Positions 55,406-64,000 of a stretch of DNA of 64,000 nucleotides are shown here, in pieces; within the stretch, counting starts at the first letter, position 1; each line of letters starts with the position of its first letter. A model generated the notes under the pieces. That model ran no database searches and was not told the DNA's origin. It saw nothing but the letters and a program-made list of their open reading frames with translations. This DNA is from Promethearchaeota archaeon. GTDB taxonomy: Archaea > Asgardarchaeota > Lokiarchaeia > Sigyniarchaeales > SOKP01. The position numbers were made by a program, and so were the translations under genes. The DNA lies in contig JBHLNF010000014.1 of NCBI GenBank assembly GCA_048937405.1, positions 18,424 through 82,423 of the forward strand, read 5' to 3'.

Positions 55406-56362
55406 ATGAAAGCAATAGTATATGAAAAATATGGGCCTCCTGAAGTATTGAAAATGAAAGAAGTAGAAATCCCTATTCCCAAGGACGATGATATACTCGT
55501 GAAGATACATGCAACAACCGTAACAAAAGGAGATGTCACATTTCGAGATGGCTTTAAAAGATTCAATCCGATAGTAAGGTTCTTTGCGCGATTAATGTTC
55601 GGTCTTAAAGGTCCTAAAAAAGTAAAAATATTGGGGCTTGAGTTAGCTGGGGAAGTAGAAGAAATCGGGAAAGATGTAACCAAATTCAAGAAAGGAGATC
55701 AAGTTTTTGCGTGTCCTGGTTTTCGTTATGGAGGTTATGCTGAATATATATGTTTTCCTGAAGAGACTAATAAAGGAAGATTTTCAAAAGATGGGATAGT
55801 GGCACTAAAACCAGTTAATATGACTTTTGAGGAAGCCGCACCTGTTGCTGGTGGGGGTTTAACGGCATATATGGTGATCAGAAAGGCTAATATTCAAAGT
55901 GGACAAAAAGTTTTGATATATGGAGCTTCTGGAAGTGTCGGTACGTTTGCTGTCCAGTTAGCTAAGCATTATGGGGCAGAAGTCACGGGAGTTTGTAGTA
56001 CAACTAATTTAAATTTGGTAAAATTTTTAGGTGCCGATAAAGTAATAGATTATACTCAAGAAGATTTTACTCAAAGTGGTGAGAAATATGATGTTATATT
56101 TGATGCTGTTGGAAAATTTAAGCCTTCACGGGCTAAAAAGGCTTTAAAAGAAACGGGAATTTATTTGAATGTTAATAAAGATTCAGGTGATGGAAAGTAC
56201 ATAAAATATGATGATTTTCAATTTCTTAAGGAACTTGTTGAAGCAGGAAAACTAAAATCAGCGATTGATAGAACTTATTCATGGGAACAAATAGTTGAAG
56301 CTCATAGGTATGTAGATAAAGGGCATAAAAAGGGAAATGTAATTATAACCATAGGCGAATAG
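55406..56362 (+). CDS. NAD(P)-dependent MDR oxidoreductase (Zn-independent type), copy 1
   Basis: [36 protein letters not shown]. Confidence 0.9.
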
Positions 56363-56364
56363 AA

Positions 56365-57291
56365 ATGAAAGCTATAATATATGAAAGATATGGACCTCCT
56401 GAAGTTTTGATGATGAAAGAGGTTGAAAAACCTATTCCAAAAGACTATGAACTACTGGTAAAAGTACATGCAACGACGATCTCATTTGGGGTGATGATTG
56501 CTCGAAGCGGTAGACACCCAGATTCCAAATTTTTTACTTTCGCAGCACGATTAATGTTTGGCATCAGAAAACCAAGAAAAAATGTATTGGGGTATGAGTT
56601 TGCCGGGGAAGTAGAAGAAGTTGGAAAGAATATAACATTATTTAGAAAAGGTGACAAGGTTTTTGGAACTACTACAGGATTGAAAGTTGGTGCCTATGCT
56701 GAATATGTGTGTGTACCTGAAGAATGGAAGCAAGGAGTAGTTGCAATAAAGCCAACAAATTTGTCGTATGAGGAAGCCGCTGCCGTCCCAGTTGGGGGAA
56801 TGACAGCATTATATATACTTAAAAAGGCAGATATTCAGAAAGGTCAAAAGGTTCTTATCTATGGAGCTTCTGGAAGTGTAGGTTCCTTTGCAGTGCAGCT
56901 TGCTAAGTACTTAGGGGCAGAAGTTTCCGCTGTGTGCAGTACTAAACACTTGGATTGGGTAAAAAATCTGGGAGTTGATAAAGTTATTGATTATACGATA
57001 GAGGATTTTACTGATAATGGTCAGATTTATGATGTAGTTTTTGAGGCGGTAGGTAAGATTTCTTCATCATATTGTAAAAGAGCTTTAAAAGAAGATGGAA
57101 TTTATCTTACAAGTAAATCTCCGACAAAGGAAATTACTGAAAACTTAATTTTTCTAAAAGAGATTATTGAAAAGGGTAAGTTAAAACCCGCTATAGATAA
57201 AATCTACCCAATGGAACAAATAATCGAGGCTCATAGGTATGCTGATAAAGGACATAAAAAAGGGAATGTGGTAATAAACGTGGTAAAATAA
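56365..57291 (+). CDS. NAD(P)-dependent MDR oxidoreductase, copy 2
   Basis: [29 protein letters not shown]. Confidence 0.9.
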
Positions 57292-57293
57292 TC

Positions 57294-58298
57294 ATGAAAG
57301 CAATTGTTTGTACAAAATACGGACCACCTGAGGTTCTACAACTCAGAGAAGTAGAAAAACCTACTCCCAAAGACAATGAAATACTGATAAAAATATATGC
57401 AGCAACAGTAACAATGGGAGATTGCGAAATGCGAAGTCTCAAGTTCTCTGGTTTGTTAAAAGTCCTTATGCGACTAGGAATGGGCTTCAGAAGACCAAGA
57501 AAAAGGACTTCAATATTAGGGCAAGAATTAGCAGGTGAAATCGAAGCAGTAGGTAGTGAGGTAACACTTTTTAGAAAAGGTGATCCTGTGTTTGGCACTA
57601 CAGGTTTTCGATTTGGTGCCTATGCGGAGTACACATGTCTACCTGCAAATGGAGTAATGATAATTAAACCAGATAAGATTACTTATGAAGAAGCCGCGAC
57701 AGTTCCTGTTGGGGGTCTTGAGGCAACCCATTATCTTAGAAAAGCAGATATTCAGAAAGGGCAAACGATTCTAATTAGAGGAGCTTCTGGAAGTATAGGT
57801 ACAATCGCAATACAGCTTTCTAAATATTATGGGGCAGAAGTTACAGGTGTAGGCAATCCTATGAGTTTGGAAGTAATGAAATCATTAGGTGCTGATAATG
57901 TAATTGACTATACCAAAGAGGAATTTACCAAAAATGGTAAGAAATATGATTTTATTTTTGATATCATAGGTAAGATTTCATTTTTAGAATTTCAAAATTC
58001 TCTAAAGAAAAATGGTACTTACCTTTTAGCTAATCCTGAACTAAAATTAATTAATCGAGAAAAAAGGATTGCAAAGAGAGGTGGTTTTAAATATATCGCA
58101 GGGAATATAGATGACACAAAGGAAATGATAGAGCAATTAAGATTCCTTAAAGAACTTATTGAGGCAGAAAAGATAAAAATTGTCATAGATAGACGATATA
58201 AGTTAGAACAATTGGCTGAGGCTCATAGTTATGTTGAAGAAGGACAGAAAACAGGAAATGTAATTATAAATATAATTGACGAAAAAAATGAAAAATAA
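57294..58298 (+). CDS. NAD(P)-dependent MDR oxidoreductase, copy 3
   Basis: [29 protein letters not shown]. Confidence 0.9.
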   Translation: MKAIVCTKYGPPEVLQLREVEKPTPKDNEILIKIYAATVTMGDCEMRSLKFSGLLKVLMRLGMGFRRPRKRTSILGQELAGEIEAVGSEVTLFRKGDPVFGTTGFRFGAYAEYTCLPANGVMIIKPDKITYEEAATVPVGGLEATHYLRKADIQKGQTILIRGASGSIGTIAIQLSKYYGAEVTGVGNPMSLEVMKSLGADNVIDYTKEEFTKNGKKYDFIFDIIGKISFLEFQNSLKKNGTYLLANPELKLINREKRIAKRGGFKYIAGNIDDTKEMIEQLRFLKELIEAEKIKIVIDRRYKLEQLAEAHSYVEEGQKTGNVIINIIDEKNEK

Positions 58299-62160: not shown

Positions 62161-64000
62161 TTAGTTAAGTTTATCTTTCATTTCCATGTAGAAATCCAAG
62201 GATTCTGGATTTCTCAACGCCCCTCGATTTGCAACTGAAAGTCCATGGATTATCTTAGTAACTGCAATCTCAACCTTTTTATCACTGAACGTATAGGGAA
62301 TACCATCTGGGGGTGCTTGTAAAATTATTTTAGGTATATGCCTTGGAGAAGTTTTTGTTCGGAGTTCTTTCCTAATTTTTTCTTTCAATGCATCGGTTAA
62401 TTCATATCCTTCATTTAACAATACAAACATTACAATTCGAATATCACCACTGAACTTTTGTCCAATCACCAAAGAATCAGCTATTTCTGGTAATTGTTCA
62501 ACCACATTATAGATCTCTGCTGTTCCAATTCGGACTCCACTTGGTTTCAAAACTGCATCTGATCTTCCCCAAAATGTTATACCTCCTGTATCGTTATGGA
62601 CTATAATATAATCGCCATGTCTCCAGACATTTTTGCCCATATCTTTAAAGAAATCAAAATAAGCTGCTTTGTATTTGGTCATATTATTGTCATCCCCCCA
62701 GAAATATATAGGCATTGAAGGTGCCGGGGCTTCACATACTAGTTCCGCTTGATCATCTTCAACTGGTTCAGCTTCTTCGTTATATGCCTCTACTTTCATA
62801 GCTAATGCTCTCCCCTGTAATTCACCAGAATACACAGGGAGAATTGGAATAGCTCCTGCAAAGCATCCGTTTATATCTGTACCACCGCTAATCGAATTGA
62901 AGTATAAATCTTTCTTGATTTCCCTATATACATACTCAAACCCTTCTGGAGAGAGGGTTGATGCGGTTTGAGATATTTCCCTTAGTGCACTTAGATCGTA
63001 TTTTTCAGCAGGTTTAACTCCAAGACTCATTAAATAATGAATATATGCAGCACTAGTACCAAATATCGAGATTTTATATTTTTCTATAAACTCAAAAAAT
63101 CTTAATGGATCTGGATAAAGTGGATTCCCATCATACAAGAATATCGTTGCGCCCGTAGTTAAGGCACTGATAAGCCAGTTCCACATTTTGGCTGGAATAA
63201 GGTGGACTTATACCATCATCCATGAAGGCGCAGTTATATAAGTAATAACATCACTTCTTTTACAATCGGTAGATAGGATTAGCTCCTTTAAATGATTAAT
63301 GAGAACACCGCCTCCACTCTGTACCATACATTTCGGTTTGCCTGTCGTTCCAGAAGAGAACATTACATAGATTGGATGATCAAAAGGTAATTGTTCAAAT
63401 TCTAACTTGTGATCTTTCTCTTTAGAAATAAAATCTTCCCAATTTAGAGCTTTAGGAATACTACTAACATCTGCTTTGCCATCAGAAATGTAAGAAACAA
63501 CAATAACTTTTTCTATTGAGGGTATAGCGTTTACCACAGCTATAACATTATCTCTAATATCAAAAACATTATCTCTATAATAATATCCATCAACAGTAAA
63601 GAGTATTTTAGGTTCAATTTGACCAAATCTGTCAATAACTGCACTTGGTTGAAGTTCAGCACCGCAAGAAGACCAAATTGCTCCAATAGTAGTGGTTGCG
63701 AGCATCGCAGTTGGTGTTTCAATTAAGTTTGGAATGTATGAAACAACACGATCTCCAACTTTTACTCCTGCTTTTTTAAGGGAATTTGCTAAACGAGCTA
63801 CGGTTTTGTTTAGCTCATCGTAAGTTATTTGTTTAGTGACCTTAGTTTCGCCTTGAAATATAAAAGCAAGTTTTTCATCCTTGTATTTTAATAAATTTTC
63901 TGCAAAGTTCAATTTAGTTCCTGGAAACCATTTAGTTCCTGGAAATACACTTAAGTCTTCAACAACTTTATCATAAGGAATAGAAGAAATTATTTTACAA
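62161..64000 (-). CDS. Acetoacetate--CoA ligase (5' end outside the window), interrupted by a 30-nt in-frame insertion
   Basis: WFPGTKLNFAENLL, FSSGTTGKPKC, WMM/WNW, SISGGTD, WRHGD, GRSDAVL..SGVRIGTAEIY; frame is open to the window edge and both parts share one frame. Confidence 0.9.
63187..63216 (-). other. Candidate bulge-helix-bulge (BHB/BHL) mRNA intron, 30 nt
   Basis: mRNA CA-UGGA-[UG^A]-UGGUAUAAG-UCCAC-CUUAUUCCA-GCCA-[AA^A]-UG; excision at the carets removes the UAA and restores P-S-W-M-M-W-N-W. Confidence 0.65.

What the first reader, a model, noticed from the sequence alone, without database searches (positions are those of the whole stretch)
63181..63228. Candidate bulge-helix-bulge intron inside a metabolic protein-coding gene
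Seen: the conserved acetoacetate-CoA ligase motif WMMWNW is split by exactly 30 nt containing an in-frame UAA, while the rest of the gene looks intact. The mRNA can fold as outer pairs CA/UG, central helix UGGA/GCCA (3 of 4 paired), 3-nt bulges UGA and AAA on opposite strands, and an intron hairpin UGG-U-AUAAG/CUUAU-U-CCA. Cutting after the second nt of each bulge, the known rule for archaeal splicing endonuclease, excises 63187-63216 and restores the motif. Established: BHB/BHL introns are typical of archaeal tRNA and rRNA and known in few mRNAs, such as crenarchaeal cbf5. Inference: endonuclease-dependent mRNA splicing gates this enzyme in an Asgard archaeon, and other apparent split genes in the genome may hide such introns. 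Caveats: the outer helix is weak, and the ATG repeat also fits a transposon footprint.
Basis: partly seen in the sequence, partly recalled or inferred. Interest (0 to 1): 0.9.

Follow-up and report, generated by a model that had tools for sequence, protein, structure and literature searches.

The report
tRNA-type mini-intron in Asgard ligase gene
A 30-base insert with a stop codon splits the only acetoacetate-CoA ligase gene of an Asgard archaeon; its tRNA-intron-like RNA shape is conserved across relatives, so it is very probably cut out of the messenger RNA, which the papers I could search confirm inside an archaeal coding sequence only for cbf5.

Summary
Observation confirmed. A 30-nt insert (63187-63216, minus strand) with an in-frame UAA splits the WMMWNW motif of acetoacetate-CoA ligase in a Lokiarchaeia-type (Promethearchaeota) genome. 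Removing it at the bulge-helix-bulge cut sites restores the orthologous protein. It is not an artefact: 20 distinct alleles carry it at the same site, always 30 nt, against 66 insert-free alleles. Five of nine stem pairs show compensatory changes, and both gene halves stay under the same purifying selection as insert-free genes. The host encodes a two-subunit EndA with the broad-specificity loop lysine, RtcB, and further BHB inserts, some frameshifting, whose removal restores conserved proteins. Best reading: an EndA/RtcB-spliced mRNA intron of relaxed BHB type (about 0.85). The insert is scattered over the gene tree, travels with its flanks, and in relatives lies beside a LAGLIDADG endonuclease gene (6/17 versus 0/60), so it looks mobile, not a regulatory gate. 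Weak points: an A.G mismatch in the central helix, the BHB is not the lowest-energy fold, and no RNA data exist. No published report found. The scan noted this intron earlier in other genomes (e1-5591573, e1-2209055, e1-5584948).

The parts
63217..64000 (-). Exon 1 of acetoacetate--CoA ligase (the part inside the window; the gene continues past the contig end)
   Evidence: TIGR01217 positions 59-319; 5' end and 663-aa joined ORF from the identical assembly L246
63187..63216 (-). 30-nt intron candidate (relaxed BHB type)
   Evidence: Same site and length in 20 distinct alleles, absent from 66
63208..63210 (-). In-frame stop inside the intron stem (TAA in 18 alleles, TAG in 2)
63219..63222 (-). 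Central helix, exon strand UGGA
   Evidence: 3 pairs invariant in 20 alleles; fourth is A.G in 19 and A-U in L018
63216..63218 (-). 5' bulge UG/A; predicted cut between 63217 and 63216
   Evidence: BHB rule from PMC2738675 applied to the sequence
63193..63215 (-). Intron hairpin: 9-pair stem, 5-nt variable loop (63206-63202)
   Evidence: 5 of 9 pairs have compensatory double changes
63189..63192 (-). Central helix, intron strand GCCA
   Evidence: CCA invariant; the G changes only to T, which completes the helix
63186..63188 (-). 3' bulge AA/A; predicted cut between 63187 and 63186
   Evidence: invariant in 20 alleles
63181..63227 (-). Exon-exon helix next to the bulges (63227-63223 with 63185-63181, one U.U)
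   Evidence: all 4 pairs in 19/20 insert alleles versus 18/66 insert-free alleles
63148..63232 (-).
   Evidence: synonymous compensatory change at alignment columns 15/93 in 4 alleles
62161..63186 (-). Exon 2 of acetoacetate--CoA ligase, 341 codons
   Evidence: TIGR01217 positions 319-650; 85-89% identical to Promethearchaeota orthologues

Best explanation
The insert is a relaxed bulge-helix-bulge intron in the mRNA of acetoacetate--CoA ligase. Shown from sequence: the RNA can form the motif, the structure is under selection, precise removal restores the enzyme, and the host encodes the machinery. Inferred: the two-subunit splicing endonuclease EndA cuts after the second base of each bulge, RtcB joins the exons to give W-M-M-W-N-W, and unspliced mRNA terminates at the internal stop. 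Inferred with less certainty (about 0.6): the intron spreads as DNA by homing-like gene conversion. A free-standing LAGLIDADG endonuclease would cut the nearly invariant WMMWNW-coding sequence of intron-free alleles, and the intron would protect its own allele. This genome's copy has the intron but no adjacent endonuclease gene.
For: Same 30-nt insert at the same site in 20 distinct alleles, none at another length. Six pairs and 13 cells with double-sided changes, against 1.9 and 2.1 in shuffles and at most 2 pairs in slid controls. Loop free to vary, motif positions fixed. pN/pS 0.16 (5' half) and 0.12 (3' half) in insert-bearing genes, against 0.17 and 0.12 in insert-free genes; no other stop. 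No second close copy in the genome. EndA catalytic subunit with the Tyr/His/Lys triad and a lysine aligned to A. pernix K44 of the specificity loop, a second EndA paralogue without the His, and RtcB (PMC6379350). A canonical-position tRNA-Ser intron of this genome also has a mismatch in its central helix. Other BHB inserts of 29, 30 and 31 nt in this genome restore the conserved protein only on precise removal; one has the same A.G mismatch. Mobility: 12 changes on the gene tree, equal to shuffled labels (12.3); synonymous flank codons -6 to +11 are shared by insert alleles whatever their branch; local or 3'-half foreign tracts in L026, L028 and L041 against their closest relatives; intact close-family LAGLIDADG gene beside 6 of 17 insert alleles and 0 of 60 insert-free alleles.
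Against: No spliced transcript or cleavage has been seen. The central helix has only 3 standard pairs in 19 of 20 alleles, and these never vary, so they carry no covariation signal. The BHB is not the predicted minimum-energy fold. L047 has lost the exon helix yet keeps the insert. In genome-wide scans the canonical geometry gave no clear excess over decoy geometries, so shape alone is weak evidence. Flank pairing and the endonuclease association are not independent across alleles that share one ancestral tract.
Confidence: 0.85

Rival explanations
1. Split gene: translation stops at the UAA and re-initiates at the AUG of exon 2, and the enzyme works as two chains; the hairpin tunes the coupling.
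For: The stop is kept in all 20 alleles, even when its pairing partners change. Exon 2 begins with AUG, and the two pieces together hold every residue. Selection on both halves is also predicted.
Against: Does not explain the fixed 30-nt length, the invariant central-helix and bulge bases, or the exon-exon helix. The break lies in a motif conserved as far as the solved Streptomyces-type enzyme 4WD1. Frameshifting BHB inserts in the same genome (29 and 31 nt) are restored only by precise removal.
Confidence: 0.06
2. Recoding: ribosomal bypass from the second AUG to the AUG 30 nt downstream, or read-through of the stop.
For: Matching AUG codons 30 nt apart in frame, with a hairpin and a stop between them.
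Against: The stop is not next to the take-off codon. The codon before the stop varies (GTA, GTT, GTG, ATA, GCA) and has no in-frame landing match. Read-through would add 10 residues that vary freely between alleles, and TAA is the main terminator here (1504 of 2078 long ORFs). Neither explains the exon-exon helices.
Confidence: 0.04
3. Dead gene with a transposon or MITE footprint (ATG as target-site duplication).
For: 3-nt direct repeat and a short inverted repeat.
Against: No second copy in 4.47 Mb (nearest has 8 mismatches in 30). The ends are not inverted repeats. Carriers at near-saturated synonymous distance keep both halves free of other lesions, with unchanged pN/pS. Compensatory evolution of the stem.
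Confidence: 0.02
4. The motif is cut by EndA but serves control (cleavage without joining, or condition-dependent splicing that gates the enzyme).
For: The BHB competes with alternative folds. The 3' cut leaves a fragment starting exactly at AUG.
Against: 66 alleles do without it, and presence is random on the tree. Without ligation exon 1 would be a non-stop fragment. No regulatory signal was tested.
Confidence: 0.03

Closest known systems
BHB intron of the cbf5 pre-mRNA in Crenarchaeota (Watanabe 2002; Yoshinari 2006; Yokobori 2009, PMC2738675)
   Same: Short ORF-less intron (16-44 bp there, 30 here) inside a conserved coding motif; mostly unconventional BHB; cut between the second and third bulge bases; host with hetero-oligomeric EndA.
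   Different: cbf5 splicing is shown by cDNA and cleavage; this one is not. The cbf5 intron is described as of common origin with losses and no obvious transfer. This one is in an Asgard metabolic gene, keeps one length, is scattered over the gene tree with conversion tracts, and is linked to a free-standing endonuclease gene.
Asgard tRNA introns (bioRxiv 10.64898/2026.10.13.758758)
   Same: Same phylum and motif, repeated gains, two-paralogue EndA; not yet shown spliced in vivo.
   Different: That paper treats tRNA genes only ('mRNA' and 'cbf5' do not occur in its text) and found no general route of arrival; this insert is in a coding sequence and has a candidate route.
5' UTR intron of Haloferax HVO_1309 (PMC7714728)
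   Same: EndA-processed BHB intron in an mRNA.
   Different: Untranslated region, 46 nt, does not interrupt a reading frame.
Collaborative / trans homing in phages (reviewed in PMC2988022; mobE, PMC2790892)
   Same: ORF-less intron in a conserved site plus a free-standing homing-endonuclease gene nearby; co-conversion of flanks.
   Different: There the introns are self-splicing group I; here a 30-nt protein-spliced intron with a LAGLIDADG gene in an archaeal chromosome. Cleavage is untested, and no such gene lies at this window's locus.
Archaeal rRNA BHB introns encoding homing endonucleases (PMC4496867; discussed in PMC2738675)
   Same: BHB intron and homing endonuclease as a mobile pair.
   Different: There the endonuclease is inside the intron; here it is a separate gene about 1 kb or more away.

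Membership tests
Strict canonical BHB motif | Four standard pairs in the central helix | tested here: not met
   3 pairs plus A.G in this allele and 18 others; 4 of 4 only in L018
Relaxed/unconventional BHB mRNA intron (cbf5 type) | Two 3-nt bulges on opposite strands, four positions apart, flanked by intron and exon helices | tested here: met
   91.7% of cells paired over 26 pairs; compensatory changes in the intron stem and the outer exon helix; the central helix itself does not vary
Relaxed/unconventional BHB mRNA intron (cbf5 type) | Cuts after the second bulge base restore the conserved reading frame | tested here: met
Relaxed/unconventional BHB mRNA intron (cbf5 type) | Host encodes a broad-specificity two-subunit EndA and an RNA ligase | tested here: met
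   Two EndA paralogues, catalytic triad, lysine aligned to A. pernix K44, RtcB; by sequence only, activity untested
Relaxed/unconventional BHB mRNA intron (cbf5 type) | Host gene remains functional | tested here: met
   pN/pS equal to that of insert-free genes in both halves
Relaxed/unconventional BHB mRNA intron (cbf5 type) | Spliced mRNA or EndA cleavage observed | not testable with these tools
   No RNA run was listed
Collaborative homing pair | Free-standing homing-endonuclease gene beside the intron-bearing gene | tested here: inconclusive
   Present in 6/17 insert alleles and 0/60 insert-free alleles, but absent at this locus; alleles are not independent
Collaborative homing pair | Co-conversion of flanking exon sequence | tested here: met
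   selection on RNA structure could add to the signal
Collaborative homing pair | Endonuclease cuts the intron-free allele and not the intron-bearing one | not testable with these tools
   needs a cleavage assay
MITE / IS footprint | Terminal inverted repeats and multiple genomic copies | tested here: not met
   single copy; hairpin offset from the ends
Programmed translational bypass (T4 gene 60 type; features from my own knowledge) | Stop directly after the take-off codon, matching landing codon | tested here: not met
   a variable sense codon lies between the AUG and the stop
Group I/II intron or other Rfam family | Match to a curated RNA family | tested here: not met
   no Rfam match at E<=1 over 62800-63600; 30 nt is too short

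The most novel reading that the evidence does not exclude
Lokiarchaeia routinely splice mRNAs of ordinary genes with the tRNA machinery, and their 30-nt ORF-less introns spread between lineages as DNA in partnership with free-standing LAGLIDADG endonucleases. That would be a third, protein-spliced and mobile class of coding-sequence introns in close relatives of eukaryotes, and a concrete route of arrival for archaeal BHB introns.
Probability: 0.55. Interest if true: 0.9.

Novelty: new variant of a known kind. Interest (0 to 1): 0.74.

Why it matters
In the papers I could search, splicing inside an archaeal coding sequence is confirmed only for cbf5 (PMC7714728, PMC2738675). If this holds, Asgard archaea process mRNAs of everyday enzymes with EndA and RtcB, and genes annotated as split or dead in these genomes are intact, which changes metabolic reconstructions. 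The endonuclease link gives a testable answer to how BHB introns arrive, a question the 2026 Asgard tRNA-intron preprint leaves open. It also offers a prokaryotic parallel to non-spliceosomal, RtcB-ligated mRNA splicing in eukaryotes (my own knowledge, not tested here). The test is cheap: one short RNA and one recombinant enzyme.

Tried and rejected
No RNA holder was listed by the run search, so expression and splicing could not be examined; the four DNA runs laid gave no joint across the insert. Neither is evidence for or against splicing. Rfam gave no match. The insert has no second copy in the genome. My first fuzzy search timed out. The first tree had wrong insert labels through a regex error and was redone. 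De novo genome-wide BHB scans with decoy geometries gave no clear excess for the canonical shape at loose thresholds; the strict version returned two canonical loci, this one and one other, against 0-5 for decoys, and it misses introns that earlier scan notes report, so I give no genome-wide count. A scan of the more distant endonuclease loci for partner introns was inconclusive (11 versus 4-8 in decoys, 4 of the 11 being the ligase itself). No endonuclease gene and no displaced 3' copy of the ligase lie in the window. The promoter/terminator scan was at chance level and is not suited to archaea. Seven literature searches on the intron found no report of coding-sequence BHB introns in Asgard archaea; subscription journals are mostly not covered. 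One Pfam call failed on coordinates; the endonuclease ORFs were checked by motif instead.

Full report
Observation. On the minus strand the acetoacetate--CoA ligase gene reads P-S-W-M, then 30 nt (63216-63187) with an in-frame TAA, then M-W-N-W. The halves match TIGR01217 at positions 59-319 and 319-650. Deleting the 30 nt gives 602 stop-free codons. The contig ends at the window's end; an assembly that is 100% identical over 5,840 nt (L246, not necessarily independent) supplies the start and a 663-aa ORF. No second close copy of the gene is in the genome; the next match is 29% identical. The closest orthologues (85-89%) come mostly from records labelled Promethearchaeota, so the host is a Lokiarchaeia-type Asgard archaeon.

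It is not an artefact or a dead gene. Across genomes and metagenomes the same insert lies at the same site in 20 distinct alleles and is absent from 66; no other length occurs. Public DNA contigs show it, with loop variants. Insert-bearing genes are far apart (median pS 0.71) yet have no other stop, and their pN/pS (0.16 and 0.12 for the two halves) equals that of insert-free genes (0.17 and 0.12). The protein is therefore still made in working form.

The RNA structure is under selection. On 20 alleles, 91.7% of cells pair over 26 pairs; 6 pairs (13 cells) change on both sides, against 1.9 (2.1) in shuffles and at most 2 pairs in slid controls. Five of the six lie in the 9-pair intron stem, one in an outer exon-exon helix at synonymous positions. 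The 5-nt loop varies freely, while the last six bases of the insert change only once, in L018, and that change completes the central helix. The exon helix next to the bulges is complete in 19/20 insert alleles and 18/66 insert-free alleles; shared ancestry of the flanks inflates that contrast. The stop is kept in all alleles (TAA 18, TAG 2), even in those where its partner bases mismatch. Shuffled inserts match the geometry in 11 of 200,000 trials. Against this: the central helix is 3 pairs plus A.G, its pairs do not vary and so cannot covary, and energy models prefer other folds. The motif is a relaxed, not a strict, BHB.

The host can plausibly cut it. The genome has two EndA paralogues and RtcB. 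The catalytic subunit is closest to PDB 3P1Z/3AJV (A. pernix, by my knowledge of those entries), keeps the Tyr/His/Lys triad, and has a lysine at the position of K44. K44 is the residue that gives the two-subunit enzymes their tolerance of relaxed motifs (PMC6379350). Most cbf5 introns also have unconventional motifs (PMC2738675). A canonical-position intron in this genome's tRNA-Ser(CGA) has a mismatch in its central helix. My scans found further inserts in protein genes of this genome: 29 nt in an AIR-synthase/ThiL-like gene and 30 nt in a probable metallo-hydrolase gene, whose removal at the BHB sites gives the sequence of insert-free orthologues, and 31 nt in a methylmalonyl-CoA mutase gene, whose halves match profile positions 1-59 and 62-523. 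The 30-nt one has the same A.G mismatch and a second allele with a compensated stem. Frameshifting lengths cannot be explained by read-through, so one mechanism, precise removal from the RNA, covers all of them.

It looks mobile. The insert needs 12 changes on a tree of 48 proteins, the same as shuffled labels, and strongly supported branches force at least 5. Insert alleles share synonymous codons from -6 to +11 around the site while being no closer than average elsewhere. L026 differs from its insert-free sister L005 by about 5% along the gene but 16-22% around the site; L028, and less sharply L041, are close to insert-free relatives in the 5' half and diverge from the site onward. L012 has insert-type flanks without the insert, which fits precise loss. 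A LAGLIDADG gene of one close family (PF14528; both motifs intact) lies beside the ligase in 6 of 17 insert alleles and 0 of 60 insert-free alleles with enough flank; short remnants occur beside both kinds. All five close hits of a 134-genome search were beside insert-bearing ligase genes (with for the second G024 copy). The 18-nt site is invariant but for one base in the 66 insert-free alleles that my pattern could read (the pattern itself requires most of these bases, and one further allele, L101, differs). Trp and Met have single codons, which makes such a site a natural homing target. This resembles collaborative homing in phages (PMC2988022). It is inference: no cleavage was tested, kin are not independent, and this window's locus has no such gene. 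I took the endonuclease lead from an earlier scan note (e1-5591573) and tested it here.

Rivals. A split enzyme explains the stop and the AUG but not the fixed length, the motif bases or the exon helices, and the break falls in a motif conserved in the solved homologue 4WD1. Bypass fails because a variable sense codon separates the AUG from the stop. A footprint in a dead gene fails on selection and copy number. Regulatory gating has no evidence.

Novelty. Coding-sequence BHB splicing is confirmed in print for cbf5 only, plus a 5' UTR case in Haloferax (PMC7714728); introns in other protein genes were only predicted (PMC2738675). The 2026 Asgard preprint covers tRNAs alone. I found no paper on Asgard mRNA introns. 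The scan's own notes record this intron in other genomes and similar ones in this genome; they are not independent evidence. Verdict: a new variant of a known kind, very probably real, with a candidate mobility mechanism; RNA proof is missing.

Noticed in passing
G000 C7:314151-314179 (-), locus L169/L226: 29-nt frameshifting insert with a near-perfect canonical BHB in an AIR-synthase/ThiL-like gene; removal gives the junction seen in 18 insert-free orthologues.
   Followed up: yes
G000 C20:10793-10822 (-), loci L205/L206/L212: 30-nt stop-containing BHB insert in a probable metallo-hydrolase gene (family not confirmed); same end-of-helix A.G mismatch as the ligase intron; second allele with a compensated stem.
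   Followed up: partly
G000 C15:3033-3063 (+), locus L170: 31-nt frameshifting BHB insert in a methylmalonyl-CoA mutase gene; halves match TIGR00641 at 1-59 and 62-523.
   Followed up: partly
G000 C19:207132-207165 (-), locus L204: 34-nt BHB-like insert whose removal gives an HdrA-like motif; not checked against orthologues.
   Followed up: no
L004, L013, L014, L017, L025, L026, L028, L029, L035-L038, L044, L047: Displaced copies of the ligase gene's 3' end lie 0.1-3 kb downstream, and the downstream gene differs in almost every genome: the gene end looks like a recombination or insertion hot spot, in both insert-bearing and insert-free alleles.
   Followed up: no
G000 C10:41938-42854, locus L172; also C7, C20, C25, C28: The genome holds at least six more distant paralogues of the LAGLIDADG family; the closest (39%) is interrupted by an in-frame stop.
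   Followed up: partly
L192 about 2850 on the reversed strand: High-scoring 30-nt BHB candidate beside a more distant LAGLIDADG gene; possible second intron-endonuclease pair.
   Followed up: no
whole genome: ARAGORN finds only 14 tRNA genes in a genome rated 100% complete, 9 of them with introns, which fits heavily interrupted tRNA genes.
   Followed up: partly
window 55406-58298 (+): Three tandem zinc-type alcohol dehydrogenase / quinone reductase-like genes of similar sequence (Pfam for the third).
   Followed up: no
L039: A contig labelled as an uncultured Leptospirales bacterium carries a ligase 81-84% identical to the Asgard ones, without the insert; mis-binning or gene transfer.
   Followed up: no
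L047:2944-3045: Allele that keeps the insert but has an insert-free-type 5' flank, losing the exon helix next to the bulge; a natural test of how relaxed the motif can be.
   Followed up: partly
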